From Prorocentrum cordatum (taxonomy: Eukaryota), in assembly GCA_963575745.1 (NCBI GenBank), contig CAUYUJ010000100.1:62001-118242 (forward strand): a stretch of DNA of 56,242 bases. The letters run 5' to 3'. This document shows positions 2,461 through 39,700 of this stretch, one piece after another. A program made the translations under genes and the position numbers. Under the pieces are notes generated by a model. That model had not been told where the DNA came from and did no database searches. It saw only the letters and a program-made list of their open reading frames with translations. Positions within the stretch are counted from its first letter, which is position 1. Each line of letters begins with the position of its first letter.

Positions 2461-3759
2461 GTCCTGGCGGGGCCGAGGGATGGGGCCCTGTCTTCAGCAT
2501 GCCCGCCCCTCGCCTTGTGCCCCCCTCCCCATCTGGTCCATCCCTGCACCCTCCCGTGAGATCACTCCACATCCCTCCGACCGTCACCGCCAATGACCAC
2601 CACCACCCGATCGCTCTCCGCTTCCCTCTCCGCTCATCCCGCGCCCCATCGAAGGGGGGGGGGGGGGCGGTGATTTCAACCGCGCGGACAAGGGGGGGGG
2701 GGCGGTGGGCGAGGCAGATGAGGCATGGGATGACGACGCCCAGACAGACGCAACATCCCAACGCAAATCCCAACGCATTGTGATTTGCATTGGGATTTGA
2801 TGCGGCGTCGTCATCCCCCATGCCGCATCATTCTCATCCTCCTCCACTATCATCATTATCATCCTCCGCTTCTTCCTACGCCTCCTCCTCCCCCTCCTCC
2901 TCATTCTCCTCCTCCTCCTCCTCCTCCTCCTGCGCCGCCCTCGCACCTTCGCCCTCATCCAGTGTCATCGGATCCGCCGCTGTCCCATTGCGACTCGTCC
3001 ATCATCCCCCTTATTTCCTCATCTCCCCCCTCTGACGGCACGATGCCACGATGCATCGATGCCGAACGCAACGATGATGATTCGACATCTGTGCGCTCGG
3101 CTTCTGTGCAACAGTATCGCACCATCTGGCGTCAACTTGAATCTGGCGAGCTCAGGCGCGGCCTGAACGTCGCGCAGCTGCTTGGGGCCGCTCTTCAGCG
3201 GGCGCGGCGTCGACGCGGTACCGACCAGCGCTGCGCGAACTAAATCCACCTTCGGAGGAGGTGCGCCGAGCCTAGATGGCCCCTGCTGCGGGACCGAGCG
3301 AGGAAGCGTGCTAGGCGCTGCAGGCGCTGCAGGGTGGGTCCGCATCGCCTTCTCCTCGGGCGCACCTGGCGGCTGCTCACCATCCGTTGCGGACGGTCGC
3401 TTCCTGGATGCGGCCGGCCTCTTCTTGATCAGCACGGCGTCGCCATCGGCGCCATCGGGGACCTCCGCCTCCTCCCCCCCCCTCCCCGGCATGCTCATCT
3501 GGCTGGTCGGCCGCGTCGTCTCCGTCAACGTCGGACCCGTCCTGGTCGTCATCATCTCGATGAGCGGGCTCTCCATCGCTGGCGGCGCGGCCGGCCTCGT
3601 CGTCGCGGCAGTGCTTGGACGGCTTCTTGGTGACCTTGGTGCCGCCCTTGGCCTTGGCCGTTGCCTTACGCTTGCCCTTCGGAGCGCTCGTCACCTCGTC
3701 CTGCTTGTCCGTCGTCTCCTGCTTGCCGTGATCTCGAAGAAAGTCGGCCTTCGCCGCCT

Positions 3760-3776
3760 CGATATCGGCCTTGTCC
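3760..3776. repeat. Target-site duplication, left copy
   Basis: CGATATCGGCCTTGTCC, identical to 12724-12740. Confidence 0.95.
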
Positions 3777-3924
3777 ACACATGGTCCATGTATCTACCTT
3801 GGCGCTCGTCCGCGGTAGCATCGTATATCCACCAAGTAAGTACCCTGCTCCACTAGGTTGCCGAACAGGGAGATAGCATTCAAGTCCTCAAACACCGTCA
3901 AGGTCACGATGTCGAAGTGATACT

Positions 3925-4058
3925 CAGCAAAACATGGCAACGTGAGCCTAGGGTGTTCCCACGCATTCGGGGCTTCCCTAGGACTTGCGTTCTGCCAGCA
4001 AACCATGGCAACATGGTCTGAGGTGTTCCCACGCATTCGGGGCTTCCTCGAGAACCGT
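3925..4058. repeat. Tandem ~70-bp hairpin duplication in the LINE 3' UTR
   Basis: The 26-nt core GGTGTTCCCACGCATTCGGGGCTTCC is identical at 3952-3977 and 4022-4047. The flanks differ between copies but are self-complementary in each. Confidence 0.9.
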
Positions 4059-4192
4059 ACTCTGTAGTGATCGGGCCTTCCACGGCCCACTCTTTTCCAG
4101 GATAATATTCATGTTTGCCCGCACCCTGCGTAGTATTCACGAGGCTGCAGTAAGTATAAGATTATGCCATCACCCTGTGTACGTGTGATGAG

Positions 4193-7100
4193 CTATCGTC
4201 CAGTGCAGATGGCTGCACAGAACTCGAAATACTTCCGTTTGGCTGACTTTTTGGAACACTTCATGCACTCGAGCTCCTGACAAACTCGTGCTGGTCGAAA
4301 GGTAAGTAGGACGTGGCATCGGTTGCCTGGCTTCTCGGTGCGTATGTTGTGCTCCACGATAAGTTTGTCGTAGTCCTCTGGCGTACGTTTTTGTCCACAC
4401 TGATGCGGCCCTGACGGCAGGACCCCTGGTGTGCATAGTAGTCGTGGCCATGTGCTGAAGCGTCCAATCCCCGGCGTAGTGAACTTGCACTGTATGCAGA
4501 GCAGGTGCGGGTCTTGGTCTCGCTTGGCTCCAGTAAGCGGACCAAGCACATGGTATCCTTGCTGGCGGGCCTCTCGATTATGTAGAAGACGCTTCTGCTC
4601 ATCAATGAGAGCACGTCCTTGAAGACCCTGAAATTCTCGTTCTTCGTCTGTCGTCCATGTGATCACATTGCGCAACTTCTGGACGGAGACAACGTTCCTG
4701 GTGTGGGTACCCCTCTCTGAGAGTGATGCCACTGATTGCATTGCTCGTGAAGAAAGGTCACTGTCTCGCACTGTCTTGACTATGTTCTCCTTGAGGCAGG
4801 GGACGCTCCATATCGGCTTCGGCGGCGAGCACCAGTCTGGACATACGTCGAGGCTGCCCCTACGGTCAGTAGAGGCGAGGGCCAACGCGTACATCACCTT
4901 CATCGTGTGCTGGTGAGCCACAAAAGACGCTCGGCATTTAAATCCTGGGGCCTTGCGAAGTCCAAGTGGTATCAAGGCGCTTATCTCAGCATGGGTCTCT
5001 CTTGGAGCCAATTTGCATTTGCATAGCTGTGCCATCCTCGTAGCTGCAGTGCTGAAGTATCTGGCCATGCGCACAATCTTTGCCTCACTAGCGCTCTCCT
5101 GCGGCGTGACAAGAGAGAGGCCCGTTACAATAGTGAAGTCGATGGCAAGCTCTACCCAGGATACCGACATTGGCGCTCGTACCGTGTCATCGGCCTCCCA
5201 TTGTAGCTGTGAGAAGTACCATACCACTGCAGGAAATAACGCCTGTTGGTAGTACCAAGCTCGATTTGCCACCGTCTCAGGTAGTATTGGTTTGAACTTC
5301 CAATCGTAAATATTTGGTTGGATTGGTTCCCACTGATAGCCAGGAAATGCTGCCTTCGGGGTCCAATTTGTCGGGTTCGTAGTAGCTTGGTCCAGTGCTA
5401 GTCCCGTGCATGTCTCCTGAGGTCTCGAGCTCGATGACGAGCTAGGTTCCTCAAGGATGGTGGCTGGTGGATCTTCTTCTGGAGCTGCTTTGCGTAGTAG
5501 TCGGCGCCTTGGTGCAGGCGGGGCCGTTGGTGTTGGCTGGGGTGATGTCGAGGAGGTCCGTTGTGGCGGTAGCTGGGGTTGCTCGTCGTCCGAGTCCATG
5601 CCCAGATGCGCCCACGGGTCCTCCTCGTTGTCTTCATCAAGCTGTGCATGTTGTTGACCGTCCAACTCAGCACGTTCCATAGCTTGGGCCTGCTCGCATC
5701 TGTCATGATGTGAATCTCGGCACATTTCTTTGAGCTCTTTTGCTCGGTGCATGAGGATGACCGTCGCCGTGTGCTGAAGAAGATAACATAATTTCTGCTC
5801 CTGCCGATGCTGCTGGCGAATGGTGTCTGGAAGGCCGTGTGACCTTGCCGCACGCACAGCTCCTGCATCTGCCTGGCGATTCATCTCCCACAAGAGTCGT
5901 TCATCTGCTGGGACGTCGCGCTCGCTCGTGTGGGCTTTGACCTTCTGTATTCGAAATAGCTCTCGTCCTTTGGCATTGAGTCCTGTCTCGATGGCCTGCC
6001 AGAGGTCGGTGTGCTGCTTGGTGTTCAGCGCTTCCCCTCGGAGGAGTGCTGAGAAGTTGCGAACGCAGCAGCTGCTGTCCGTCAGGTAGATCTGTTTGCC
6101 CCAGCTCCACGCGACAAAGTGCCGAAGTGCTGCAACCTCTGCTCTCTGAGCTCCCTGTGCGACACTGCGCAGGGGCACTTCAACATTGCATGGATGACCT
6201 CTGCCGTAGTACAGTGAGTAGCCCGATCTGCGTAGACGTAGGTCCGACGCCTGGCCAGGACATGACCCGTCACCAGCTACGACAGTGTAGTCATCGATCT
6301 TTGTGAGAATGTCCTCCTCGTGTCCTCCCACCTCATGCTCACCGTCGGCGTGATGTGGCGGTGCATGTAATGGAGGATCATCTGGCAGTAGTTCACATGC
6401 GAAGGCATCATATTCTGGCTTGTCTGGCAACTGTCCACAGCACAAGAGGCACGTCGGTAGCGCAAGAAGCTCTTCCTTCGTGTAGCTTTGCAATTCCCAT
6501 CTGGGGCAGTCCAATAAGATATGCTGCATAGTCTCGTCAAGGGCGAGGCAAAATGGGCACTTCTTGTGGGCTGGATTCTTGGTGATGTAGTGCAGTCTAT
6601 GTCCTGTGATGGTGCCTCCCTGGAGGTAGGCACGCAAGAACGGGACCTGCTTGGAAGTAAGTTTAGGTACTGGTATGTCCGTGGATCCAAGAAGCAACGG
6701 GGGCTGCTCCTTCGGCTCGTCGTCCACGTCCTCGTCGTCAGGCTTGGTGGTACGGTCAGCTTTGCGCAAGATGGCCGTGGTGACGTGGTAGTTCAGGCCA
6801 ACAGCACAGCCCTTCATGTCCTTGCGCTCCTGTAGCTGAAGATCGGTACGCCACACAAATCGTCGAAGATCCTCTCTCAGTGTATGCTGCCACCAGCCCA
6901 TCGGGTGCTTGGTGAGGTAGATTCGTTGCTGGTTCGCCCTCTCGAAGTAGTCGAAGGCTGGCCATGTCCATTGTAAGTCCTTCAACACAGAGCGTATCCT
7001 GTTGATGGGGCCTGTGTCGTTGTCCTTCACGGTGAATGTTACTCGATGCTGCAGGATGTCCCAGCACTGCTTCGCACGTCGTAGTAGTCGTGCTGCGCTT

Positions 7101-10100
7101 GGGCTGGAGAAGAGCCTTCTCGCAATCACCAGTGGTTGCGCAGTGGCAATCTGCACGGGGTCAAGCAGATGACCTCGAGTAACAAGAGTAAGTGTCATTG
7201 CTGGGGATCGATATGCTCTCCCTCTTCGCCACATGCTTTTTATCACTGCCGATCTAAAGTTAAGATGATTGTGTTTCGGCAGTCGTCGGTATTCTAATCC
7301 TGGCGCAAGTCGTGGTAAGGCTGCTGTTGCCAAAAGACGCTGCTTTCCTTGGAGTCCGAGTGGGGCGGCACCGGTACGCTGAGTTACGCGATATGCTGAG
7401 GTATACCTTCGGCGTCGCTCCGCCTGTGGGCACATTCCCAGCGTACATATCTCTCCACCCACCAGAGTAAAATTCTTCACAATCGATGCTTGGACATGTC
7501 CTTGAGCGTTGAGATGGTGCCTTAGCTCCTTCTCAGCCTTGATCGATGTGGCGAAGTGCTTCGTCTTCTCAACATTGGTCTGAGTACCTGAATGCTGATC
7601 AAATTCAACTGAAATAGTTGTTGCTTTGGCAGTCCGAATAGCATGCTGAGGTCCTTCGGCTCTGAAGTTGCCGTCGTCGATGAAGGATGCGACCTTGACC
7701 TCTGCTTCTTTCTCAAGGGCATGGCTCCAAATCGACATCAATGCGAGCGCCTGCTGCAGGGACCAGGAGTCACCTTGGATAAAACCGTTGCTGCGCTTTG
7801 TCTCTGGGCCTACTGCACGTGCTACCTTCCATCTCGCTCGAAGATCCTCGTAGAAGATGGTGGACGCATGCATGACACCCTCAGGGCAGCCCAGTGCTTT
7901 CATCAATCTGTTGCCTATCTCGTACTCGAGGAGGTCAAAGAACTTTCGGCGATCTGCTGAACATCCTGAGGTCGGAGTACCTGTGATGTGTGCATATTCA
8001 ATGTCCAGCGCCAGTTCCCAGGATACAGCTTGGTAGTGATATCCTTTCCTGGCTCCAATAGCTCCATCATGCAACCAAAGCTCGCGCCAGGATGCCATTT
8101 GAGTAAATCTGTCGCCTGTGACAGCGGTGTATATTGGGCTCAGATTGGTGATTGGCCTCGTGTCCGAAATTGAAGCTGTCCACACATTGTCTGGCTCAAT
8201 CTCTGCAGCAAGGTCAGCCTCCTGATCCCATTTCGGGAGGCAGCTCGTAATTCCAAGAGTCATTGCACGCGGCCATCTCAACCAAGCATCCTCTACTCCT
8301 TTGCAGAGGGTGGCGAACAGGTCACATATACAGGGTGGTAGTAGTCGAAGTTCAGCAACTCTCCACCCGTCAGCTGCGGCAGCGCGGTGCACATTCATTT
8401 TGCAGAATTGTCGATGAAGTCGATGGCCTGTTATGTCCTCGATCTCACATGGATGTTGCTTGATGTATTGGCCGAAACGGGTCTCGAACTTGTCCCATGC
8501 TTTCAGCTCGCCTTTGTTGAAGATCTTGCTCCAGAAAAGATCAACCTGCTGGAGCATCTCCTTTCTTCGTGTGTGAATCTGCGTAGGATCTGCATGACCT
8601 CGTACTGCATGAATTGTTTGGTACTGTCGTTGTTTGATCCACGCATAGACCTCACGTCCGCCAGAGTATCGTAGAGAATCTCTGAGTGTCTTGCGCCAGC
8701 TGTCGATCCTCGCCAGCTTGCGCTCTTTGACGTGCTTGCTGTGCTTGTTCTCCAATGCTGTGGTCCATTTCCCAATCTGGGTAGAACTCGGTAATCCAAT
8801 CGGTATGTCAGCTGGTAGGTTCAGCTCACGTCGTAGTGGTCCTCGTACTTTGCGCCAGAGCGCTTGGGACTTCAATTTCGCAGAAAAATTGGGATGTACG
8901 GCTCCTCGATGCTGTTGTAGTGCCAACTCGGCTAGGCGGCTGATGAGGTTCTCCAGGCGTCGCAGAATGGTCGCCGTGGGTCCTTCTTTCAGCTTGTCTC
9001 GGCCTGCAGGTGGTGCCGTACTTTCCCACGTGGTTAGTTCAGGCTCTTGACTTCGGCCGTGATATACGGCTCCAAAGGTAATGCCAGTGTGCTCAAGTCT
9101 CTTTTCCAGGTAAAGCTCTCCAATTTTTCCGACCAGGGCCCAAGCATCCTCGGCCCGTTCGTCAATGAGTGCTTGCTCGAAGGCTTCGTAGTGTACTTCA
9201 ATGCATTGGCGTCCAAGGGCATCGCTGTCCTCGGCGCTGATCTTCATGACAGACTCCACTGGGTAAGCTCGAGGGATTCTGATACTGTCGAAGGTGTTCG
9301 TGAGCAGTCCAACGTTCAGTGTCATCTCGAGCCCCAGGTGACTTTTGATTCCTAGGTCACGTCGTAGTCGGAACGTCTTGATGGCGTCCCTGGCCGCCGT
9401 GTTGACTATGATGAGGTCTGGGCGACTCACATTCGTGCCGTGTGTAAACTTGCCCCACGAGGGGTCAACTCCATATGTCGGCTCAGCTCCAAACATAGCA
9501 CCTACATCATGCCAACGTCCTGTGGCAAGAATAGCTGCAAGCGTGGAGGAGTGCCCCGTAGTAGTGTTCGCGTCCATGCAGATGACCACAGCTTGATCGC
9601 CAAGGCCTTCAGCATCCTCGAAGGTATAGTGCAGATTCCGATCATTTCGGGTCCTGATCATGTTGTCATGGCCAGCTTCGTTGTAAAGGTTGACGAAGTG
9701 GATGGGACGCGAGCCAAAGAGAGCTACAACCCGAAGCCAGCGGGTCGTCGCATACATCTCCTTGGCTGCTCCATACTTGCGCCCGCCTGGGAGCGTGACC
9801 AGAGATCGCTTAGCAATAGTGGCAACCCCACCCTGCTGCGTACGATGATATTTATCTCCAAGGCATTTCTGAGGTCTGAGTGGGTGCCCAAAAGTATCCT
9901 CATACCCATGAGCTTGACAAGCCTTTGAGCAGCCCATTTGTTGTTTGTAATCCAATCGCGTTTCTTGCAATAGTAGTAGGTCGACGTCCATAGTGCCCAT
10001 ACGTCCCACGAACGAATTCCAAGATGTAGCATTTGCTGACAGAATAGTAGCCAGAGCAGGAATTTCTCCCTCCACTGCCGCCCTCTGAGGTGGCGGCTGT

Positions 10101-10129
10101 TTGCCTCGCATGCGTCGCGAGGCCATCAT
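4193..10129 (-). CDS. Retrotransposon ORF2 polyprotein: apurinic-like endonuclease, reverse transcriptase, CCHC zinc knuckle, RNase H, C-terminal Cys/His region
   Basis: 1978 aa uninterrupted. EEP motifs: ILSANATSW, LLLLQETRL, GGVA, ICMDAN, SRPDLII, SHLGL. RT motifs: AADGWRVAEL, RPITNLS, DRRKFFD, GFIQGDSWS, SFIDD. Zinc knuckle: CPFC...HILLDC. RNase H: GDGSC, AQRAEVAAL, YLTDS, KVKAH, NRQADAGA. Confidence 0.97.
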   Translation of the reverse strand: MMASRRMRGKQPPPQRAAVEGEIPALATILSANATSWNSFVGRMGTMDVDLLLLQETRLDYKQQMGCSKACQAHGYEDTFGHPLRPQKCLGDKYHRTQQGGVATIAKRSLVTLPGGRKYGAAKEMYATTRWLRVVALFGSRPIHFVNLYNEAGHDNMIRTRNDRNLHYTFEDAEGLGDQAVVICMDANTTTGHSSTLAAILATGRWHDVGAMFGAEPTYGVDPSWGKFTHGTNVSRPDLIIVNTAARDAIKTFRLRRDLGIKSHLGLEMTLNVGLLTNTFDSIRIPRAYPVESVMKISAEDSDALGRQCIEVHYEAFEQALIDERAEDAWALVGKIGELYLEKRLEHTGITFGAVYHGRSQEPELTTWESTAPPAGRDKLKEGPTATILRRLENLISRLAELALQQHRGAVHPNFSAKLKSQALWRKVRGPLRRELNLPADIPIGLPSSTQIGKWTTALENKHSKHVKERKLARIDSWRKTLRDSLRYSGGREVYAWIKQRQYQTIHAVRGHADPTQIHTRRKEMLQQVDLFWSKIFNKGELKAWDKFETRFGQYIKQHPCEIEDITGHRLHRQFCKMNVHRAAAADGWRVAELRLLPPCICDLFATLCKGVEDAWLRWPRAMTLGITSCLPKWDQEADLAAEIEPDNVWTASISDTRPITNLSPIYTAVTGDRFTQMASWRELWLHDGAIGARKGYHYQAVSWELALDIEYAHITGTPTSGCSADRRKFFDLLEYEIGNRLMKALGCPEGVMHASTIFYEDLRARWKVARAVGPETKRSNGFIQGDSWSLQQALALMSIWSHALEKEAEVKVASFIDDGNFRAEGPQHAIRTAKATTISVEFDQHSGTQTNVEKTKHFATSIKAEKELRHHLNAQGHVQASIVKNFTLVGGEICTLGMCPQAERRRRYTSAYRVTQRTGAAPLGLQGKQRLLATAALPRLAPGLEYRRLPKHNHLNFRSAVIKSMWRRGRAYRSPAMTLTLVTRGHLLDPVQIATAQPLVIARRLFSSPSAARLLRRAKQCWDILQHRVTFTVKDNDTGPINRIRSVLKDLQWTWPAFDYFERANQQRIYLTKHPMGWWQHTLREDLRRFVWRTDLQLQERKDMKGCAVGLNYHVTTAILRKADRTTKPDDEDVDDEPKEQPPLLLGSTDIPVPKLTSKQVPFLRAYLQGGTITGHRLHYITKNPAHKKCPFCLALDETMQHILLDCPRWELQSYTKEELLALPTCLLCCGQLPDKPEYDAFACELLPDDPPLHAPPHHADGEHEVGGHEEDILTKIDDYTVVAGDGSCPGQASDLRLRRSGYSLYYGRGHPCNVEVPLRSVAQGAQRAEVAALRHFVAWSWGKQIYLTDSSCCVRNFSALLRGEALNTKQHTDLWQAIETGLNAKGRELFRIQKVKAHTSERDVPADERLLWEMNRQADAGAVRAARSHGLPDTIRQQHRQEQKLCYLLQHTATVILMHRAKELKEMCRDSHHDRCEQAQAMERAELDGQQHAQLDEDNEEDPWAHLGMDSDDEQPQLPPQRTSSTSPQPTPTAPPAPRRRLLRKAAPEEDPPATILEEPSSSSSSRPQETCTGLALDQATTNPTNWTPKAAFPGYQWEPIQPNIYDWKFKPILPETVANRAWYYQQALFPAVVWYFSQLQWEADDTVRAPMSVSWVELAIDFTIVTGLSLVTPQESASEAKIVRMARYFSTAATRMAQLCKCKLAPRETHAEISALIPLGLRKAPGFKCRASFVAHQHTMKVMYALALASTDRRGSLDVCPDWCSPPKPIWSVPCLKENIVKTVRDSDLSSRAMQSVASLSERGTHTRNVVSVQKLRNVITWTTDEEREFQGLQGRALIDEQKRLLHNREARQQGYHVLGPLTGAKRDQDPHLLCIQCKFTTPGIGRFSTWPRLLCTPGVLPSGPHQCGQKRTPEDYDKLIVEHNIRTEKPGNRCHVLLTFRPARVCQELECMKCSKKSAKRKYFEFCAAICTGR

Positions 10130-10560
10130 TGCTCCGACTTTATTTCCAAGGACGTCTTGAGCTTCTTTGTGAACTCCTCAAGCTCGGCCTTCCGTTTGCG
10201 TTCTTCATCGGTAACAAGGGTCCCTGTCGCTGGCGATGGCGGTGCTGATGTGGGCGCTGGGGCGATCATCATGTCCAAACATCGCGCAAGTCCCTGACCT
10301 TGAAGATGTAATTGTGATAAAAAAAAAAAAAAAAAAAGACTAAAAAAAAATATGTTAAAAAACAGAAACAAAAAATAAAAGAAAAAAAAAAAAAAAAAAA
10401 AAGAATTAAAAAAAAAAAAAAAAAATAAAAGAGCCAAAAAAAAAACACAAAAAAAAAAAAGGAAAAAGTAATAAACAAAAAAACAAAAAAAACAAAAAAA
10501 AAAACAAAGCAAAAAAAAAAATAAAAAACAAAGACTAAAAAAAAAGAAAACAAAAAACTA

Positions 10561-10592
<32 letters not shown>

Positions 10593-12619
10593 AAAAAAAA
10601 TTATATTGCAGCATTGTGACTCCCCACCGCGGCCCCGATGGCTGACGTTAGAAATTCACGAAATTCTTTTGATAGTCCAGCTCCTGCTTCTGGCTGCTGA
10701 GCGGGTTGTTGCGCACGAGGTTGCATCTGTACATCCTGAGCTTGCACCGGCACGTTCGGTCGAGTCAATTGCGTGGCAATGCTCTTCTTAGTTGTGACAG
10801 GTGGCTTCGGCGTAGACGTCGATGTACTTGCAGAGTATTGTGTGACAAGCTCAGCCCACGTAGGTGCTGTGGTCGGAGCTTCCGTAATCTTTTCCACTCT
10901 TGGATTGATCGTTGCCTGACATCCTCCAATAGATATATCACGACTAGCAGGGGCTGACTCAGCACGCGCTCGCACCACTGGGACACGTCGTTTGCCGTTG
11001 CCTCGCTGCCGTATGCTCACAAATTCAGATTGCCATCCCATCTGCGTCTTGAGCTGGTCGCAGAGGGCCTTGCCGTCGATCAGCGCTGGCAGCGGGGAGA
11101 TCTCGTAGATCGTTGCCGCTGGTGGCGCTCTCTGTTGTAGTGCTTGCCATGCTGCTGCTGCACTTTGCTTTTTGACACGAAAGAACAAGTTATGTGATTT
11201 GAAGTGGTAGCCGAGGCCGCATGCTCCTTCCAGGGTCGTCGTCAGCTCGATGGCCTCGCTGATGGTCTTGCCACGCTGGAATGGCACAAACTCCTCATCT
11301 TCTTTTTCTTGCTTGAGTACAGCTCCATCACTCCCAATGTTCGATCTCTGAAAGAAAACTCCATCAGGACCAGAGACTTCACGAAGCTGTTGGACTCTGT
11401 TTGCTGGTATACGAAATAACGCTGATATGACACGTCGACCTGCATCATCCTCGTTGAACATGCGCCCGCTGTAGCATATGACTTCAAGGTCCGTCGGGAT
11501 GAGCTTGGTCTTCACAATATTGGCCATCTCGGCATCCAAAACACGCCAAGGCGGCAGCTCGTTGTACTTCTTTCGTTGGCCTCCTCCTCCTGCTTCAGCT
11601 CGCTTGTCGCGGGCCGCTGTAGCTTGTCGGTGAAGACGCGCCAGTTCTTTGAATAGCTTCTCTGTCGAGTGTTCTTCCAAGACCGCCACAGACATGAGAA
11701 CCTCTGATTGGCACTCGATCTTTGTGGGGACACGCGTAGGTTTGATGTCCGCACCCTGCACACCAACATGTTGCCAGACAAACAACTTGCGTAGCTCACG
11801 GCGGCCGTCTGGGTGGGTAAGCGGTACACTTAATAATGATATTTTATCCGTCAGCCCTCTTTGTGCACACTGAAGGACAAGATCTTTCGGAAGACTATCT
11901 GGCGGCTGTGCCAAGACGAACCCAAAGGGGTCTTTCGGCAACTCTTTGCTCCAGAAATCCTTGTCTGACAGAAGCTGCGCCAGCTCGTTCACTGTGACCA
12001 GGTGGATCCGCTTCATGTCATCATATTGCGTTGGTAGCCCGCGTACAGTCGGTAGTGACCAGTCTGCATCGTCGAGCTTGGTTGTCAGTTGCCACGTCGG
12101 CTGTGGTGTGGTCGCTGACTTCTTTTTCTTTTTCACTTTCTTCTTCTTGGGCTCCGTGTCCGTGTCAGGGAGCTTCGAGCCAAGCGGTCTCTCCTTGAGC
12201 CACTTAGTGATCTCTGGAAAGATTTTCTCGGCCTCCAACTTTGATATTTCTGCCATTCTTTCTTTGCTGATGTTCCGCAGGTGGTCATACGTCTTCTGAG
12301 CCTGGGATACCTCTTTCATTTCGAGCACAGTCATGACTCGAGATGCCATCATCGCTGGAGTGTTGGCCAGCTTCGCCAGTCGTTTGCGTAGTGCAGTCTT
12401 CGCCCCCGGCCCATTGCCGTGGAGCGCGTGCTGAAGTCGATTCCACTCCTGGTGGGTAATAAGCCACCTATATCCAAGTGAATATTCTCGATCCCCTGGA
12501 AAGATGAAGCCCCAACAACATCTCTCCACAAAATTGATGCTAATATTCTGAAGATAATATATGTGGACGTACTTCGCGACGCTATGGACAAACTCGTAAT
12601 ACCCATGGTCCGTCGTCAT
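10126..12619 (-). CDS. Retrotransposon ORF1 (nucleic-acid-binding/gag-equivalent), interrupted by an A-rich insert; start at 12619 or 12352 uncertain
   Basis: Long open frame directly upstream of ORF2, with a basic NLS-like KKKKVKKKKK. Deleting 10321-10603 joins ...HNAAI to LSQLHLQG... in frame. The stop overlaps the ORF2 ATG. Confidence 0.8.
10321..10603 (+). other. 283-nt degenerate poly(A) insert within ORF1 (probable read/assembly artefact or poly(A)-only insertion)
   Basis: Almost pure A with scattered C/G/T, no flanking duplication; removing it restores the frame. Confidence 0.75.
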
Positions 12620-12723
12620 GACAACCGAGAACCTGAAGCTGTGGTTCAGAAGGTTGTACGTCTCGGCAGAGTCGCCCTTGGAGTCTCTGACGAGGCCCCT
12701 CTGGTCGATCTCCACTATGTCAC

Positions 12724-12740
12724 CGATATCGGCCTTGTCC
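12724..12740. repeat. Target-site duplication, right copy
   Basis: CGATATCGGCCTTGTCC, identical to 3760-3776. Confidence 0.95.
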
Positions 12741-13829
12741 TTCTTGCCATCGCAGTAGTCCTTGCCCATCTGGATGATGAGCGATTTGGCAGCCTCGAAG
12801 TACTTCTCGTCGCACCCCACGAGCTGGCAGAGCTGTTTGCCTCCACGACTAATTCGAACCCACGTCCCCTTCGCCTTGTGGTTGACAATCTCGCACTTGA
12901 TGGTCTCCTGCTTAGGGCGCGCGCCTCTGAACAAGATCGTCGGGGATGACTTTTGCTGCCCGGCCATCCCTGGCGACGCGTCGGGCACTGGCCACCGATG
13001 CCCGTTGCTCCAGGTCCCGACCAGCAGCTCAGACTTGTCCTCGACGACCGCCCTGACGTACACTGGAATGCCACTGCCGCCCGCGCGAAGTCTCCACGCG
13101 GACTGTGGGTGGTCAGAACACCTCCGAACGACGTTTGGCGATCACCGACCACAGTCACGCCCCTCACACTCCGTGTGAATTCAATGTTGGATGGGAACGG
13201 TTTTCGCTGAGACGTCGCCTGAAGAGGTCCTGACCACCCGAAGTGCCAGCCGTCGGCGCTGTGAACGATCTCGAGCCCACATCGGCTGTACCGCCTACCG
13301 TCCTTGACAATCACGCTGTCCGATGAGGTGCGTGTCGCTGTGCGTTCGCCCGTGGCATCCTTTTCTGGTGCCTCCCCTATCCACGTTTGTGTATTGATCG
13401 CGTGCATGGCGTCTCCCCCAACCTCCTATCTTACCTTATACCACCCCCGCTCTACGTGTGCGAATCTCCCCCCCGCTACTTGCCCCCCCCCCCCCCCCTC
13501 AGTCTGTAGCGTGGACAGGGTTGGCAACATGTCCTGGGGACTCGGGACATCCTGAGGCTCGCGTTCCCCGATCCCGCTGCTATCGGCGGAGATGTCGATT
13601 TGCGGCTGGCTCTCGTAGGAATCGGCGGGCGGGTCGTCGGCGTCGTCGCCGTCGTCGTCGCCACCCCCCTCCTTCGCTGGCCCGAAAGCCTCTTGCGCCC
13701 ACGCGGTCTCCCTCGGGCGTCGGATCGCACGACTGGCCCCGACCAATGCCCCCGACCCCTGCCTTCGAGTCTCGAATCCACACCGCGGCGACGAGCACCA
13801 GCCCCTGTGCCGACAACATCAGTGACACG

Positions 13830-14290: not shown

Positions 14291-14320
14291 GTCGGGTGTG
14301 GTGTGTGTGTGTGTGTGTGT

Positions 14321-14377
<57 letters not shown>

Positions 14378-14450: not shown

Positions 14451-14550
14451 NNNNNNNNNNNNNNNNNNNNNNNNNNNNNNNNNNNNNNNNNNNNNNNNNN
14501 NNNNNNNNNNNNNNNNNNNNNNNNNNNNNNNNNNNNNNNNNNNNNNNNNN
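14451..14550. other. Assembly gap (100 N)
   Basis: Run of N. Confidence 1.
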
Positions 14551-19500: not shown

Positions 19501-19684
19501 GTGTTCGGCCCTCTGAAAGTGTTCGGCTGGTGCGCGGCGCCCGCGCGCTGGAGCACCACACGGCGACATGGCGACATGGCGGTGTGCGGGGTATCTTCGG
19601 GCCGTCCGCCTTTTGGGCTAGGCGGGGAGGGCGCTGGAAAAAGGCCGCTGCTCCTTAAGAAGACCTGAGCGCGCGGCGGCCTTT

Positions 19685-21920
<2,236 letters not shown>

Positions 21921-22779
21921 ATGGAGGATGATGAGGAGGAGGTGGACGTGGAGGAGGACGAGGAGGGCGGATGAGGAGGGCGGTGAGAGGAGGGAGGGTG
22001 GAGGATGTGCGAGGAGATGGGACGAGGGAGGATTCTGGGAGGCAGGGGAGGGCGGAGGACGGGATGGGGCAGGGGATGGGTGGAGAGAAGGGTGATGAGG
22101 GAGAGGGGCCGTGGGGAGAGGCAGTGGGAATAGGAACGGGAGGAGGGAAAGCGGGAATCGACTAGGAATCTGGCAGACGTGGGCGCTGGGCTGCACACCT
22201 GCCAGCTGCACTTGGCCGAGCGGTGCGACAAGATGGCGCCCCTTCCGTTCCTGCGTTGCGGCCAGTGCGCGGACGAGCCGCTGCGAGAAGAGATCGAGGC
22301 AATCAACGTACTCTGAGCGGAGTCGTTTGCGCCACAGTCAAACATCTACTTGAGAATAGGGCTACTTCTGTAGGGGTGCCCTGGACCCTTGCACCCCTGA
22401 CTCTGTCGGCTCAACGTAAGGAGTTTTGGGCGTCCACGTGTCTTGTGTGGATGTCCACGGGTCTTGCATAACTCCTTTAGCATCCTCAAGTTTGGTTTTG
22501 ATTGTGTTGTGATGTCCTGGCGGCAGTGCGGAGAATCTGGGCACAAGATTGGCCATGCCATACGGCAGGGGTACCCTACTGTGCATAGAGTGGGCTGCAA
22601 TATTTTGTGCCCCTTAAGCTGATGCGAATTCTTGGTCATGGCGATTGCTCTGAGCCTGAACGCTTCGCGCATCTCCACAAGCCCATCCAGGAACGCTGCC
22701 CAGGAGAGCTGCCCTTATCGTGGGAGCGTGGCATCATCGGGATGCTGCGGGGAGCCTCGGTGGGCAAGAGGCCTCTTGG

Positions 22780-23920
22780 ATGCCGGCTCCGGTATCTTCG
22801 GGGGTCTCTTGGGGGCCTCTTAGAGGCCCATTGGGGCCTCTTGCGGGCCTCTTGCTGGCTTTTTGGGGGCTTCCTGGAGCGTCTTGGGTGCCTCTCGGGG
22901 GCTTTTTGGGGCCGCTTTGGCGCCTGTTCGGGCCCTCTTAGGACTCTGTTGAGGGCTTTTCGGGCCGTCTTCGGGCCATCTGGGAGGCCAGCGGGTAAAA
23001 AAGGGGGCGGCGCAGATTCGCCTCACTCTCCTCCCCCCGAAGCCCCAAGCCAGCACAACGTCGAAGGACAACCAGTGATGGTTTGCTTTTTCGCGAAGGC
23101 CATCTTGGACGCTCAGACTGCTCGCGATTCCCCCCGCCCAGACCCCAAGGGGAGGGACTTCTCTGGAAAGGGCCGGCGATACTCTGCAGGCAGCGCTTGG
23201 GCACGGGACCGGGGATGCCTGCTGCATGCCCGCGCTTCCAGACGGTCCCAAGAGGCCTTCCAAGAGGTTCCAAGAGGCCTCCAGGGCGGCTCAAGTCCAG
23301 GGAGGAAAAACCACCCAGACACCGACAATTGGCTTTTGCTGAACGGCCCTGGGCATTTTCTAAACACCCCTGCCCTGTTCGATTCCTCCCTTGGGGGCGT
23401 TTGCTAAGCGGCTTTGCTTGTCGGGGTGATTCTTATGGGGGTAGATTTTCTGCCCTCTATCAAGACCACCCAAGACGCCCAAGATGGCTTGACCAGTGTC
23501 CAAGAGGTTTTCAACGATGCTCCAATTGGGCTTCACGAGGATCCCCAATAGAGCTCCAAGGGGCGAACGCCGTCACAGCCTCATTCGGAAAGCATGCACT
23601 TTTAGCATATCTGCCTTGCTGCTCTAGCCAGAGCCCCAGATGCCCGGAAGGGGCTCTCGAGGTGCCCCAGAGGAGACCAAGACGAGCCCAAGGGCCCCCA
23701 AGGCGCCTCCAAGACGCGCCCAAGAGGGACCCATGAAGGCCCCAGACCCTGGTTCGCAACATCCAACATAGGACCAACTAGGGGTATCGTCCTTGGCGCT
23801 CATTTTGGCCAAGAGGCCCCCCAGCATGCCCCGAATGGGTCCCCAAGAGGTTCCCGAAGATGCCCCAGGAGGCCTCCTAGAGGCGCCCACGAGGCCCCCA
23901 GGGGCCCCCAAGAGGCTCTC
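22780..23920. repeat. CCTCTTGG/CCAAGAGG-rich dispersed repeat (both orientations)
   Basis: GGCCTCTTGGG motifs at 22790-22980 and their complement at 23250-23920. Confidence 0.75.
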
Positions 23921-27979: not shown

Positions 27980-28938
27980 TGGAGGCCTCATGGAGCGTCT
28001 GGGGGGCGTTTTCGCGGTCCCGGACGCCTCTTGGAGCGTTTTGGGTGCCTTGGAGAGCTTCTTGGGGCCTCTTGGTGGTCTCTTGGGAACCTCTTGGAGG
28101 CCTCTTGGGCGCCTGTTGGGACCTCCTGGGGCCTCCTGGGCGCCTCTTGAGACCCTCTTGAAGCGCTCTTGGGAGCCTTGGGAGCGCTCTTGGAGCCCTC
28201 TTGGGCCATCTTGGAGCCATCTTGAAGCTTCGGATAACCATCGGGAGCGAGAAGGCGAGAAAGCCAAACACATAATTAAAAACATATTTGTTGAAGAATG
28301 TTGGCCGCTTCGGGGCCTCCTGGGGGAGCTCTTTGGCCACTTGTAGCCGTCTTGGAGCGGTCTTCGGGCCTCTTAGAGCATCGTGGGAACCATCTTGAGG
28401 CATCTTGGGATGTCTTGAGCCATCTTGGAGGTCATTTTGGGCTCTCCCAGGCGCTTTTGGAGTCATCTTAAGCAGTGCCCCCCCCCGAAGGAGGCCAACA
28501 TGTGGCCAACATTTTAGTAAACTCCATGATCTTGGCATTGTCGCCGAGGCCTCTTGGAGCGTCTTGGGTGCCTCTTGGGGCCTCATGGGGGCCTCTTGGG
28601 GGCATCCTGGGGGCCTCTTGGGAGCCTCTTGGGGCCTCCTGGCCACCTTTTGGGGCCCTCTTGGGGCAACCATCTCGGAGGAGATCGATCAAAGAAGAGG
28701 GGAGCATTTTGCAGCCTCGCCCCCCGAAGAGGCCAAAATGGGGCCACAACCCCAGTAAAACCAATGATTGTGGCTTCCTCGCCGAGGCCGTTTTCGACGC
28801 TCCGACCGCTCGCGAAACGCCCCGTCCAGGTCCAGGGGAGGGGGTAGGGGGAGGGGTAAACCCCTCCCCGAAGGGGAAGAAGGGGGTGGAAGAGGAAACA
28901 TCTTAAAACCACCTACGTCCTGAAGGGCTGGTGGGATT
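27980..28938 (+). mobile_element. CCTCTTGG-rich dispersed element ending in a hairpin plus GGGCTGGTGGGATT
   Basis: Body of GGCCTCTTGG repeats; GGGGAGGGGTAAACCCCTCCCC hairpin near 28848-28869; the same end sequence occurs at about 24660-24755. Confidence 0.6.
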
Positions 28939-33649: not shown

Positions 33650-34280
33650 CTCAGCGATGCCTTGTGGGGCCTCTTTCGGAGCTCGCTCGCAGGTCTCTGG
33701 GGTGCAGTTTTGGGGCCTCTTGGGAGCATCTTGGGGGCCTCTTGAAGCCTCTTGAGGGTCCCTTCGGGCTTCCTGGGGGCCTCTTGGGTACCTCTTGGGG
33801 CCTCGTGTTGGCCTCCTGGGGGCCTCTTGGGGCCTCCTGGGAGCTTCTCGGGGCCGAGGGCTCGAAATGTTCGTTCGGCTCCCGTGTGGGCACCCTCTTG
33901 GAGCCGTTTTGGTTGCCTCTGGGGCCGTCTGGGAGGCCTCCAGGGCCGTCTTGGGCCCTCTTGGGTCGTTTTGGAAACCTTTGGGGGCCTCATGTGCCTA
34001 TCTTGGTGACATCTTGGGCCGTCTTAGGGCGCCGGGAAGCCGAAAGAGCGAGGACGCCAGAATATTTCAAATTCCCTCCAAAAGTAGAAACTTGATTTTG
34101 CCTGTTGGCGCCCTCTTGGTGTGCTCTTGAATGCCCCTTCGAGCGTCTTCGAAGCCGCTTGGGCTGTCAGGAGGCCATCTTTGGCGTCTTCGACCGGCTG
34201 TTCAGCGAATCGGGGCCCTCTTGGACCGTCTTGGAGGCCTCTTGGGCTGTCTTGGGGCCTTTCTGGGCCACAGGGCCCCC
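33650..34280 (+). repeat. CCTCTTGG-rich dispersed repeat
   Basis: Same motif family as 27980-28750. Confidence 0.75.
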
Positions 34281-36759: not shown

Positions 36760-39700
36760 GCCGGAGCGTGGTGGGGGGTCCCGGCGAGGGTTTTGCATGG
36801 TGGGGAGTGTATGCGGTTGTGCCGGAGCCAGGAGGGGGGGTGCCGGAGCGTAGTGGGGGGTCCCGGCGAGGTTTTTGCAGAGCCGGGGGCCCCAAAAACA
36901 GAGCTCCAGAGGCTTGGGGAGCGGTCTTGGGGGCCTCTTGGGCGGTCGTGGAGCGTCGGAAAGCTGGAAAGCGAAAAACATTGAAAAAATCAACAACGAT
37001 TTTGGCCTGTTGGGACAGCGGGGTGCCGGGGCGCGGCGGGAGGTCCTGGGCGAGGTTTTTGCAGAGTCGGGGGGCCCAAGAGACAGAGAGCTCCAGAGGC
37101 GAGGGGAGCGGGCTTGGGGGCCTCTTGGGCGGTCGTGGAGCGTCGGAAAGCTGGAAAGCGAAAAACATTGAAAAATCCAATGGGAATCGATGATTTTGGA
37201 CTGCTGGGGCGGCGGGGTGCCGGGGCGCGGCGGGGGGCCCCGGCGAGGATTTTGCAGAGTCGGGGGGCCCACAAACAGAGCTCCAGAGGCTTGGGGAGCG
37301 GTCTTCGGGGCCTCTTGGGCGGTCGTGGAGCGTCGGAAAGCTGGAATGTGAAAAACATTAAAAAAACAAATCAATGGGATCAGCGATTTTGGCCTGTTGG
37401 GGCGGCGGGGTGCCGGGGCGCGGCGGGAGGTCCCGGCGAGGTTTTTGCAGAGTCGGAGCGCCCAAAAACAGAGCTCCAGAGGCTTGGGGAGCGGTCTTGG
37501 GGGCCTCTTGGGCGGTCGTGGAGCGTCGGAGAGCGGGAAAGCGAAAAACATTGAAAAAATCAATGGGAATGAACGATTTTGGCCTGTTGGGGCGGCGGGG
37601 TGCCGGGGCGCGGTGGGGGGTCCCGGCGAGGTTTTTGCAGAGTCGGGGGGCCCAAAAACAGAGCTCCAGAGGCTTGGGGAGCGGTCTTCGGGCCTCTTGG
37701 GCGGTCGTGGAGCGTCGGAAAGCTGGAAAGCGAAAAACATTGAAAAAGTCAATGGGAATCAACGATTTTGGCCTGTTCGGGCGGCGGGGTGCCGGGGCGC
37801 GGTGAGGGGCCCGGCAGGTTTTTGCAGAGTGGGGGCCCAAACACAGAGCCCCAGAGGCTTCGGGAGCGGTCTTGGGAGCTTCTTGGGCGGTCGTGGAGCG
37901 TCGGAGAGCTGGAAAGCGAAAAACATTGAAAAAATCAATGGGAATCAACGATTTTGGCCTGTTGGGGCGGCGGGGTGCCGGGGCGCGGTGGGGGGTCCCG
38001 GCGAGGTTTTTGCAGAGTCGGGGGGCTCAAAAACAGAGCTCCAGAGGCTTGGGGAGCGGTCTTCGGGGCCTCTTGGGCGGTCGTGGAGCGTCGGAAAGCT
38101 GGACAGCGAAAAACATTGAAAAAATTAATGGGACTCGACGATTTTGGCCTGTCGGGGCGGCGGGGTGCCAGGGCGCGGTGGGGGGTCCCGGCGAGGTTTT
38201 CGCAGAGTCGGGGAACCCAAAAACAGAGCTCCAGAGGCTTGCGGACAGGTCTTGGGGGCCTCTTGGGCGGTCGTGGAGCGTCGGAAAGCTGGAAAGCGAA
38301 AAACATTCTGAAAAAAACAATGGGAATCAACGATTTTGGCCTGTTGGGGCGGCGGGGTGCCGGGGCGCGGTGGGGGGTCCCGGCGAGGTTTGTGCAGAGT
38401 CGGGGGGGTCAAAAACAGAGCTCCAGAGGCTTGGGGAGCGGTCTTCGGGGCCTCTTGGGCGGTCGTGGAGCGTCGGAAAGCTGGAAAGCGAAAAACATTG
38501 AAACATCAAATGGGAATCAATGATTTTGGACTGCTGGGGCGGCGGGGTGCCGGGGCGCGGTGGGGGGCCCCGGCGAGGATTTTGCAGAGTCGGGGGGCCC
38601 ACAAACAGAGCTTCCAGAGGCTTGGGGAGCGGTCTTCGGGGCCTCTTGGGCGGTCGTGGAGCGTCGGAAAGCTGGAAAGTGAAAAACATTGAAAAAATCA
38701 ATGGGAGTCAACGATTTTGGCCTGTTGGGGCGGCGGGGTGCCGGGGCGCGGTGGGGGGTCCCGGCGAGGTTTTTGCAGAGTCGGAGCGCCCAAAAACAGA
38801 GCTCCAGAGGCTTGGGGAGCGGTCTTGGGGGCCTCTTGGGCGGTCGTGGAGCGTCGGAGAGCGGGAAAGCGAAGAACATTGAAAAAATCAATGGGAATCA
38901 ACGATTTTGGCCTGTTGGGGCGGCGGGGTGCCGGGGCGCGGTGGGGGGTCCCGGCGAGGTTTTTGCAGAGCGGGGGGCCCAAAAACAGAGCTCCAGAGGC
39001 TTGGGGAGCGGTCTTCGGGGCCTCTTGGGCGGTCGTGGAGCGTCGGAAAGCTGGAAAACGAAAAACATTGAAAAAGTCAATGGGAATCAACGATTTTGGC
39101 CTGTTCGGGCGGCGGGGTGCCGGGGCGCGGTGAAGGGTCCCGGCAAGGTTTTTGCAGAGTCGGGGGGCCCAAACACAGAGCCCCAGAGGCTTCGGGAGCG
39201 GTCTTGGGGCTTCTTGGGCGGTCGTGGAGCGTCGGAAAGCTGGAAAGTGAAAAACATTGAAAAAATCAATGGGGATCAACGATTTTGGCGTGTTGGGGCG
39301 GCGGGCTGCCAGGGCGCGGTGGGGGGTCCCGGCGAGGTTTTTGCAGAGTGGGGGGGCCCAAAAACAGAGCTCTCCAGAGGCTTGGGGAGCGGTCTTGGGG
39401 GCCTCTTGGGCGGTCGTGGAGCGTCGGAGAGCGGGAAAGGGAAAAACATTGAAAAAATCAATGGGCATCAACGATTTTGGCCTGTTGGGGCGGCGGGGTG
39501 CCGGGGCGCGGTGGGGGGTCCCGGCGAGGTTTTTGCAGAGTCGGGGGGTTCAAAAACAGAGCTCCAGAGGCTTGGGGAGCGGTCTTCGGGGCCTCTTGGG
39601 CGGTCGTGGAGCGTCGGAAAGCTGGAAAGCGAAAAACATTGAAAAATCCAATGGGAATCAATGATTTTGGCCTGTTGGGGCGGCGGGGTGCCGGAGCGTA

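What the first reader, a model, noticed from the sequence alone, without database searches (positions are those of the whole stretch)
3925..4058. Twin covarying hairpins in the LINE 3' UTR that fold best on the antisense/cDNA strand
Seen: two ~70-bp units share an invariant 26-nt core, but their closing stems differ while staying paired (CCTAGGG/CCCTAGG plus AACGTGAG/CTTGCGTT in unit 1; GAGG/CCTC plus ATGGT/ACCGT in unit 2). The outer stems contain G-T wobbles on the + strand, which would be A-C mismatches in the mRNA. Inference: the structure is under selection and may act in first-strand cDNA or an antisense RNA, for example as an RT or ORF1 recognition site, second-strand signal or small ncRNA/ribozyme. 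I do not recognise the motif.
Basis: partly seen in the sequence, partly recalled or inferred. Interest (0 to 1): 0.8.

Follow-up and report, generated by a model that had tools for sequence, protein, structure and literature searches.

The report
Twin hairpin repeat after LINE gene
Two adjacent ~71-base hairpin-forming repeats with an identical loop sit just after the reverse-transcriptase gene of a jumping gene (LINE) in an unidentified marine protist, and most likely form the RNA handle by which the element's enzyme grabs its own transcript, a known kind of signal rather than a new antisense device.

Summary
The two units are real: 3925-3995 and 3996-4066, with an exact 26-nt core. They start 126 nt after the stop codon of an intact 1994-aa ORF2 on the minus strand. 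This is a two-ORF non-LTR retrotransposon whose relatives come from Symbiodinium and metagenome contigs.

The arms differ between the units yet still pair, with three double compensatory pairs. Leader plus loop are 38/39 identical; the arms are 13/28. Unit 1's arms are complementary beyond 2000 of 2000 shuffles on both strands. Unit 2 is marginal.

The claim that it folds best on the antisense strand fails. Whole units fold equally on both strands, and equally as DNA. RNAalifold finds G-U pairs on both strands.

Public-run contigs show the core is a high-copy family. Its depth is 2672 against 16-90 for the LINE body, and other copies also lie in tandem.

Rfam, tRNA and spliced-leader tests found nothing.

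Most likely reading (0.45): a duplicated 3'-tail stem-loop recognised by the LINE's own ORF2 protein and amplified as non-autonomous copies. The 3' end of the element and the acting strand are unproven.

The parts
3925..3995 (.). Hairpin unit 1 (71 nt): conserved leader, 8-bp distal and 7-bp proximal arms, 3x3 internal loop, 4-bp inner helix, 8-nt loop
   Evidence: Arm complementarity beats 2000/2000 shuffles on both strands.
3996..4066 (.). Hairpin unit 2 (71 nt): same leader and loop, different and weaker arms with two bulges
   Evidence: Arm complementarity is marginal: 125/2000 shuffles do as well on +, 362/2000 on -.
3952..3977 (.). Invariant 26-nt core, copy 1
   Evidence: k-mer depth 2672 in run X1 for bin 3940-3993, against 16-90 for the LINE body.
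4022..4047 (.). Invariant 26-nt core, copy 2
   Evidence: An X1 contig at 98.8% identity runs from the ORF end through the unique UTR into this core (record 1, 4020-4279).
4067..4192 (-). Unique part of the 3' UTR between the ORF2 stop and unit 2
   Evidence: Folds better on the sense strand: -40.2, z -2.63, against -31.5, z -0.49 on +. A 136-nt insert in an RNA library covers 4060-4195 with 1 difference (record 21, run X5).
4193..10177 (-). LINE ORF2, 1994 aa without a stop: endonuclease-like N-terminus, reverse transcriptase, zinc knuckle, RNase H-like stretch, long C-terminal extension
   Evidence: Pfam RVT_1 E 7.7e-5 and zf-RVT E 0.0032, both below the curated cut-off. Relatives at 25-33% identity over 93-99% of residues 560-1300. 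One relative carries the endonuclease family PF03372.
10319..10600 (-). T-rich (A-rich on +) 282-nt tract between ORF1 and ORF2
10601..13141 (-). LINE ORF1, 846 aa
   Evidence: Residues 583-768 are 28% identical (E 1e-17) to the ORF that precedes ORF2 in the relative L001. No Pfam family. No near-length relatives.
13522..13567 (-). Weak, degenerate unit-like stretch upstream of ORF1 (arms and leader alignable, loop shortened). Possibly chance.
   Evidence: Local alignment score 25. 15 of 1941 random window stretches score as high, and the stretch was chosen post hoc after a 10-mer match. It does not form a good hairpin.

Best explanation
The two units are a tandemly duplicated stem-loop module in the 3' tail of a two-ORF non-LTR retrotransposon that reads on the minus strand.

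Inferred mechanism, as in 'stringent-type' LINEs:
- The sense RNA folds into a hairpin.
- The invariant loop and inner helix are read specifically by the element's own ORF2 protein.
- The outer arms only need to pair.
- Binding places the reverse transcriptase at the 3' end of the RNA for target-primed reverse transcription.
- Because the handle alone suffices, short 3' fragments or non-autonomous copies carrying it are amplified. They pile up next to each other. This would give a family of ~71-77-nt units in tandem that is far more numerous than the LINE body.

Shown here: position, anatomy, compensatory change, uneven conservation, and high copy number with tandem arrangement elsewhere.

Inferred, not shown: that the units belong to the LINE transcript, that the sense RNA is the acting form, and that ORF2 protein binds it.
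For: 1. Position. The units start 126 nt after the stop of an intact ORF2. The distant relative L001 likewise has about 95 nt of unique UTR followed by tandem repeats to the contig end.
2. Non-random association. The 56-kb window holds no other copy, so a chance landing within ~130 nt of the stop is unlikely. This step is inference.
3. Linkage in public data. An X1 contig at 98.8% identity (3 differences in 260 nt) joins the ORF end, the unique UTR and the unit 2 core (record 1).
4. Conservation pattern. The loop is conserved and the arms are variable but paired. Leader plus loop are 38/39 identical and the arms 13/28. There are three double compensatory pairs.
5. Family variants.
   - All 23 X1, 7 X2 and 1 X4 contigs covering 3979 read C where the window has T.
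   - Loose ends show other arm variants. One is a 3' arm that would pair perfectly with the 5' arm shared by 10 X1 and 3 X2 contigs.
6. Abundance. Depth is 2672 and 324 in the two unit bins, against 16-90 over the ORF in X1. In X2 the figures are 63 and 17 against 0.9-2.7.
7. Tandem copies elsewhere. X2 record 14 spans two cores, with 10 differences and a 6-nt insertion. Loose ends behind 3993 run into a new leader.
8. Precedent. Abstracts read of PMC4176376 (ORF2 of zebrafish L2 LINEs binds the cognate 3' stem-loop, with general recognition of the stem and specific recognition of the loop) and PMC1636434 (the eel UnaL2 hairpin is shared with a SINE and needed for mobilisation).
9. Sense-strand structure nearby. 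The adjacent unique UTR is structured on the sense strand.
Against: 1. The 3' end of the element is not mapped.
   - No poly(A) and no clear terminal microsatellite were found. TRF finds none at 3850-3930.
   - No target-site duplication was found.
2. In X1 only one contig covers 4102-4155. The diverged LINE paralogues seen over the ORF were not seen to run into this UTR. So no second LINE copy is shown to carry the units.
3. The 45-150-fold excess of the core over the ORF, and its tandem arrays with other flanks, would also fit an independent satellite.
4. The two distant relatives that hold a 3' UTR (L001, L004) have neither the core nor a covariance-model hit. Their UTRs are not alignable to this one. 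At about 30% protein identity this is weak evidence.
5. Trimmed to the hairpin proper, the RNA is 4.3 and 1.3 kcal/mol more stable on the antisense strand.
6. Unit 2 is not a significantly good hairpin on either strand.
Confidence: 0.45

Rival explanations
1. The units belong to an independent tandem repeat (a ~71-77-bp satellite or dispersed mini-array) that merely abuts the LINE. Arm complementarity is kept at the DNA level, for instance by template switching between the arms of an inverted repeat or by selection for a cruciform. No RNA has a function.
For: - The core is 45-150 times deeper than the LINE ORF in X1.
- Other copies are in tandem and have unrelated outer flanks (loose ends at 3930, 3945 and 3994).
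- No second LINE copy is shown to carry the units.
- Both strands fold equally, also with DNA parameters. That is what a DNA palindrome predicts.
- The window is very rich in other satellites and microsatellites.
Against: - The only two units in 56 kb sit 126 nt behind the LINE stop codon, in a window that otherwise lacks them.
- A non-palindromic loop that is identical in both units, beside arms that are half diverged, is not what DNA-level palindrome maintenance predicts. None of the 41 listed differences falls in the core, but 122 further rows were not shown.
- Template switching as a maintainer of hairpins is recalled from the literature. The search for it failed on a formatting error and was not repeated.
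Confidence: 0.25
2. The units are the LINE's preferred insertion target. The element integrated into or beside a pre-existing unit array, as site-specific LINEs do with repeated genes or microsatellites.
For: - Unit arrays exist elsewhere without visible LINE sequence.
- A weak, degenerate unit-like stretch lies upstream of ORF1 in the same orientation, at 13522-13567.
- Two copies of a related LINE lie head-to-tail on one metagenome contig (L002 and L004).
Against: - The upstream stretch is marginal: 15 of 1941 random stretches score as high, and it was chosen post hoc. It lacks the core and does not fold as a hairpin.
- No target-site duplication was found.
- No intact unit lies 5' of the element.
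Confidence: 0.1
3. One reading: the structure is selected on the plus strand, which is antisense to the LINE. It would act in first-strand cDNA or in an antisense RNA, for example as a second-strand priming signal or a small RNA.
For: - Unit 1 has 17 Watson-Crick and 4 G-U pairs, and mirrored on the minus strand those 4 become mismatches.
- Trimmed hairpins are 4.3 and 1.3 kcal/mol better on + as RNA.
- RNAalifold gives -16.9 on + against -13.85 on -.
Against: - The helices were chosen on +, so A-C pairs are excluded by construction.
- Folded in its own right, the minus strand has 20 consensus pairs. Six are G-U in at least one unit, and they include a closing helix kept in both units.
- Whole-unit energies are equal.
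- With DNA parameters there is no difference, which removes the cDNA version.
- At most three wobble positions are independent, because two are shared by both units.
- No strand-specific expression data exist. The one RNA-library contig stops at 4060 and has no strand.
Confidence: 0.08
4. The unit is a small mobile hairpin element or small-RNA/ribozyme gene of its own. One model is the hairpin-forming introner elements of syndinian dinoflagellates. It would have landed twice in the LINE's 3' flank.
For: - The family is high-copy and hairpin-forming.
- Hairpin-forming, repeated non-canonical introns with 8-20-nt inverted repeats and 3-5-nt direct repeats are described in Amoebophrya (PMC7789003; passages and section 10 read).
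Against: - No direct repeats were seen at the hairpin borders by eye.
- Here the arms vary and the interior is conserved, whereas the paper defines introner elements by their inverted-repeat motifs.
- The units are in tandem, and no host gene was found there.
- No known ribozyme or RNA family matches, even at E up to 10.
- No tRNA-like fold.
Confidence: 0.07

Closest known systems
3'-tail stem-loop of stringent-type LINEs (eel UnaL2 with UnaSINE1; zebrafish ZfL2-1 and ZfL2-2)
   Same: - A hairpin in the 3' UTR of a LINE.
- The loop is conserved and the stem needs only to pair. The abstract of PMC4176376 describes bipartite recognition: stem in general, loop specifically.
- An internal loop or bulge lies within the stem (PMC1636434 abstract).
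- The same tail is present in many more non-autonomous copies than LINE bodies.
   Different: - Here the module is ~71 nt, duplicated in tandem, and found in tandem arrays elsewhere.
- No terminal short repeat or 3' end is mapped.
- The LINE belongs to a different, protist group: two ORFs, an RNase H-like stretch, and only 25-33% identity to its nearest relatives.
- Binding and function are untested.
- There is no sequence similarity to those tails. I did not compare them directly. Rfam holds no match.
Terminal tandem repeats of LINE 3' UTRs, as in the related metagenome element L001
   Same: About 100-130 nt of unique UTR after the ORF2 stop is followed by head-to-tail repeats.
   Different: - L001's repeat is a 9-11-mer that forms no hairpin.
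- Its UTR folds no better than shuffles (z -0.54).
Satellite DNA with dyad symmetry
   Same: - Tandem units of tens of bases.
- High copy number.
- An inverted repeat within the monomer.
- Both strands fold equally.
   Different: - Only two units are present here, tied to a LINE stop codon.
- The loop is invariant while the arms are half diverged.

Membership tests
Stringent-type LINE 3'-tail recognition stem-loop | Lies in the 3' UTR of a LINE, on the sense strand, close to the 3' terminus of the element | tested here: inconclusive
   It is 126-267 nt after the ORF2 stop. The element's 3' terminus could not be mapped: no poly(A), no microsatellite and no target-site duplication.
Stringent-type LINE 3'-tail recognition stem-loop | Stem kept by compensatory change, loop conserved among copies | tested here: met
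   - Three double compensatory pairs.
- Loop and leader 38/39 identical, arms 13/28.
- Arm variants in public contigs.

Only two full sequences were available, so the statistics are weak (53/500 shuffles).
Stringent-type LINE 3'-tail recognition stem-loop | Present at the 3' end of other copies of the same LINE family and of partner non-autonomous elements | tested here: inconclusive
   - The core is 45-150 times deeper than the ORF, and it has other flanks elsewhere.
- Only one contig links the UTR to the unit, and it may be the same locus.
- No genome is held.
- There were 0 matches in JGI metagenomes, prokaryote genomes and viral contigs.
Stringent-type LINE 3'-tail recognition stem-loop | Bound by the cognate ORF2 protein and required for retrotransposition | not testable with these tools
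   Needs a binding assay and a retrotransposition assay.
Any Rfam family, including the self-cleaving ribozymes it holds | Covariance-model score at or above the gathering threshold | tested here: not met
   - 0 matches in the whole window at gathering thresholds.
- At E up to 10 in 3700-4300, four matches appeared. All were outside 3925-4066 and far below threshold.
tRNA-derived SINE or tRNA-like unit | tRNA-like cloverleaf | tested here: not met
   ARAGORN found 0 genes in 3700-4300.
Relict dinoflagellate spliced leader | Match to the canonical spliced-leader sequence (recalled from memory) | tested here: not met
   0 matches at up to 3 mismatches in the whole window. The resemblance of the unit's leader seen by eye needs gaps.
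Introner elements of syndinian dinoflagellates | Terminal inverted repeats of 8-20 nt with 3-5-nt direct repeats at intron borders inside genes | tested here: inconclusive
   Inverted repeats are present. No direct repeats were seen by eye. No host gene is recognisable. No splicing data exist. The definition is taken from PMC7789003.

The most novel reading that the evidence does not exclude
The ~71-nt hairpin is itself the unit of amplification. It would be a minimal non-autonomous retroelement: little more than the recognition hairpin of a protist LINE. Copies would be made and inserted next to existing copies, so it builds satellite-like tandem arrays. Its arms would diverge fast under a pairing constraint while the loop stays fixed. 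That would link LINE tail recognition directly to the birth of a satellite. It would also provide a natural series of stem variants of one RT-binding loop.
Probability: 0.15. Interest if true: 0.65.

Novelty: new member of a known kind. Interest (0 to 1): 0.4.

Why it matters
If the units are the recognition handle of this LINE, they give a compact RNA signal, defined by sequence, for a retrotransposon group from marine protists that has barely been described. Its relatives are in Symbiodinium and in metagenome contigs. The natural arm variants make a ready-made mutational series for testing how an ORF2 protein reads loop versus stem. The large excess of the hairpin over the LINE body would show how such a handle can seed tandem repeats. 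If the units are only a satellite beside the LINE, the finding is ordinary.

Tried and rejected
**Searches for the motif**
- Whole-genome search: no genome is held for this window.
- Exact 22-mer of the core: 0 matches in JGI metagenome contigs, prokaryote genomes and viral contigs.
- Earlier findings of this scan: nothing by place or by sequence. A word search failed on a formatting error and was not repeated.
- Motif strings in 8.4 million papers: 0 papers. Two topical searches found no description of such a hairpin in dinoflagellate LINEs.

**Relatives of the LINE**
- A protein-based scan of JGI metagenomes gave 6 loci at 21-33% identity. Only L001 and L004 hold a 3' UTR.
- Neither L001 nor L004 has the core or a covariance-model hit (R1 searched over the window plus 6 loci).
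- Their UTRs do not align significantly to this one: 47/200 and 200/200 shuffles do as well.

**Known RNA and repeat classes**
- Rfam, ARAGORN and the spliced leader all gave nothing.

**Element boundaries**
- Target-site duplication: the only 10-17-nt direct matches between the 3' flank and the region 5' of ORF2 lie inside ORFs or inside unit 2.
- The ORF downstream of the units (3377-3793, minus strand) is not a second ORF1.
- A possible terminal 9-11-mer repeat at 3879-3907 was seen by eye. TRF does not report it at score 30.

**Identifying the organism or host genes**
- 18 and then 108 further ORFs gave no Pfam family above noise.
- ORF1 has no near-length relatives.

**Coverage holes**
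- Holes such as 3400-3615 in X1 prove nothing.
- 122 rows of differences, 31 loose ends and 101 contig pieces were not shown. I therefore cannot state that the core is invariant in all copies.

Full report
**What is there.** The plus strand at 3925-4066 holds two head-to-tail units of 71 nt, at 3925-3995 and 3996-4066. They share an exact 26-nt core at 3952-3977 and 4022-4047, and a 17-20-nt leader that is 90-94% identical. No such pair arose in 100 shuffles. The 56-kb window holds no further copy at up to 3 mismatches, by short-word BLAST, or by a covariance model built from the two units.

**Fold of each unit.** In unit 1 an 8-bp distal and a 7-bp proximal helix, separated by a bulged A, close a 3x3 internal loop, a 4-bp inner helix and an 8-nt loop. 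In unit 2 the same loop and inner helix are closed by 4 + 2 + 5 bp with two bulges. A rival small hairpin in the leader competes with the distal helix.

**Is it more than chance?**
- For unit 1, yes. Its energy z-score is -2.9 (+) and -3.1 (-). With the interior fixed, none of 2000 shuffles of the 3' arm folds as well on either strand.
- For unit 2 alone, no. Its z-scores are -0.6 and -1.2. 125 and 362 of 2000 arm shuffles do as well.
- The comparison of the two units is more telling. Leader plus loop are 38/39 identical and the arms only 13/28 (Fisher P 1.3e-6).
- 89% of pair cells are standard pairs, against 27-57% when partners are slid by 1-3 columns. Three pairs (alignment columns 18-64, 26-55, 27-54) changed on both sides and stayed paired.
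- With two sequences the shuffle control is not significant (53/500).

**Context.**
- The units lie 126 nt downstream, in the minus-strand sense, of the stop of a 1994-aa open frame at 4193-10177.
- That frame gives weak Pfam matches to reverse transcriptase and to the zinc-binding RT domain.
- It has full-length relatives at 25-33% identity. One is named as Symbiodinium. One carries the endonuclease family PF03372.
- The 846-aa frame upstream (10601-13141, minus) is homologous (E 1e-17) to the frame that precedes ORF2 in the metagenome relative L001. The element is therefore a two-ORF non-LTR retrotransposon.
- It carries a 282-nt T-rich tract between the ORFs.
- No other gene could be recognised in the window. 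None of 18 and then 108 further ORFs had a credible Pfam family. No whole genome is held.

**Strand.** The title claim does not hold.

| Fold | Unit 1 (+ / -) | Unit 2 (+ / -) |
|---|---|---|
| Whole unit, RNA | -29.1 / -29.4 | -20.2 / -21.5 |
| Hairpin proper, RNA | -27.7 / -23.4 | -17.4 / -16.1 |
| Hairpin proper, DNA parameters | -12.9 / -12.0 | -6.0 / -6.1 |

- The plus-strand advantage appears only for the trimmed RNA hairpins. It vanishes with DNA parameters, which is what a first-strand cDNA would require.
- The wobble argument is circular, because the helices were picked on the plus strand.
- RNAalifold on the minus strand finds 20 pairs. They include a closing helix kept in both units, and 6 pairs are G-U in at least one unit.
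- On the plus strand it finds 13 pairs, 3 with G-U. The consensus energies are -16.9 for the plus strand and -13.85 for the minus strand.
- The adjoining unique UTR (4067-4192) is structured on the sense strand (z -2.63) and not on the antisense strand (z -0.49).
- The acting strand is therefore open.

**The family.** Laying contigs of four public runs on 3400-5000 shows that the core is a high-copy repeat.

| Run | Bin 3940-3993 | Bin 3994-4047 | Comparison depth |
|---|---|---|---|
| X1 | 2672 | 324 | 16-90 over 4048-5000; 10-60 over 3616-3939 |
| X2 | 63 | 17 | 0.9-2.7 |
| X4 | 2.45 | 0.05 | about 2.2 |

- All 23 X1, 7 X2 and 1 X4 contigs covering 3979 read C where the window reads T. The window's A-T pair 3950-3979 is therefore a private variant.
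- I could not see the partner base in those contigs.
- Other copies are also in tandem. X2 record 14 spans two cores, with 10 differences and a 6-nt insertion. Loose ends behind 3993 run into a new leader.
- Arms differ among copies. One X2 contig has a 3' arm that would pair perfectly with the 5' arm shared by 10 X1 and 3 X2 contigs that align from 4018.
- Outer flanks of some copies are unrelated to the window (loose ends at 3930, 3945 and 3994).
- One X1 contig (record 1; 260 nt aligned, 3 differences) links the ORF end, the unique UTR and the unit 2 core. It may be the same locus in a related strain.
- Only that contig covers 4102-4155. No second LINE copy is shown to carry the units.
- A 136-nt insert in an RNA library (X5) covers 4060-4195 with one difference. 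It gives no strand and stops short of the units.
- 122 difference rows, 31 loose ends and 101 pieces were not shown.

**Relatives.**
- The core 22-mer has no exact match in JGI metagenomes, prokaryote genomes or viral contigs.
- A protein-based scan gave six loci at 21-33% identity. Two of them (L001, L004) hold a 3' UTR.
- Neither has the core, a model hit or an alignable UTR.
- L001 does show the same layout, with about 95 nt of unique UTR and then tandem repeats to the contig end. But its repeat is a 9-11-mer without a hairpin.

**What it is not.**
- No Rfam family matches at gathering thresholds in the window. None matches at E up to 10 within the units.
- There is no tRNA-like fold.
- There is no spliced-leader match at up to 3 mismatches.
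- No paper prints the motif.

**Most likely mechanism.** I commit, at 0.45, to a duplicated 3'-tail recognition stem-loop of the LINE.
- The sense RNA hairpin would present an invariant loop and inner helix to the element's ORF2 protein, while the arms need only pair.
- This matches what is reported for stringent-type LINEs. I read the abstracts of PMC4176376 (stem recognised generally, loop specifically, by the region between endonuclease and RT) and PMC1636434 (the hairpin is shared with a partner SINE and needed for mobilisation).
- The excess of units over LINE bodies, and their tandem arrangement, would follow from amplification of tail-only copies next to existing tails.
- The main argument for a real link to the LINE is positional. 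The only two units in 56 kb lie within 130 nt of the stop codon. This is inference.

**Against it.**
- The 3' end is unmapped. There is no poly(A), no microsatellite by TRF and no target-site duplication.
- There is no second LINE copy with the units.
- The copy-number excess would equally fit a satellite.

**Rivals.**
- An independent satellite whose palindrome is kept at the DNA level (0.25).
- A preferred insertion target (0.10). The only support is a marginal, degenerate unit-like stretch at 13522-13567 upstream of ORF1. 15 of 1941 random stretches score as high, and it was chosen post hoc.
- A self-standing hairpin element, small-RNA gene or ribozyme, including an introner-like element as described in Amoebophrya (PMC7789003; passages and section 10 read) (0.07).

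**Verdict.** The element is real and structured, and it evolves under a pairing constraint. It is probably a new example of a known kind of signal (a LINE 3' stem-loop) in an undescribed protist LINE. The antisense claim is not supported. Interest is moderate (0.4). The boldest reading still open is that the hairpin alone is a minimal retroelement that builds tandem arrays.

Noticed in passing
window 22795-22939, 28026-28228, 28548-28666, 33710-33855, 34217-34268, 54492-55637 (+): There are many plus-strand arrays of an ~11-mer of the type GGCCTCTTGGG. The distant LINE relative L001 ends its 3' UTR with a similar 9-11-mer repeat at L001 7848-7908. These arrays may therefore be tails of related retroelements.
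   Followed up: partly
window 36837-40838: A 190-bp (or 382-bp) satellite with 21 copies at 90% matches. It is G-rich and contains the same ~11-mer motif.
   Followed up: no
window 19684-21934: A (TGA)n array of about 750 copies. It explains the GC dip and the strong GC skew in the 20001-22000 bin.
   Followed up: no
window 10319-10600: A 282-nt tract that is A-rich on + and T-rich on the LINE sense strand lies between ORF1 and ORF2. The relative L001 has overlapping ORFs and no such spacer.
   Followed up: no
L002 and L004 (one 51-kb metagenome contig): Two degraded copies of a related LINE lie head-to-tail in the same orientation on one contig.
   Followed up: no
window 3760-3776 and 12724-12740: A 17-nt exact direct match links the region just downstream of the units with the inside of ORF1. 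There is no wider homology.
   Followed up: yes
window 3778-3831: A ~45-nt stretch downstream of the units has raised depth (60) in run X1. Three contigs break at 3774 and three at 3820, which suggests another short repeat.
   Followed up: no
window 14451-14550: An assembly gap of 100 N sits just beyond a (GT)n/(CA)n array at 14296-14375. This limits any search for the LINE's 5' end.
   Followed up: no
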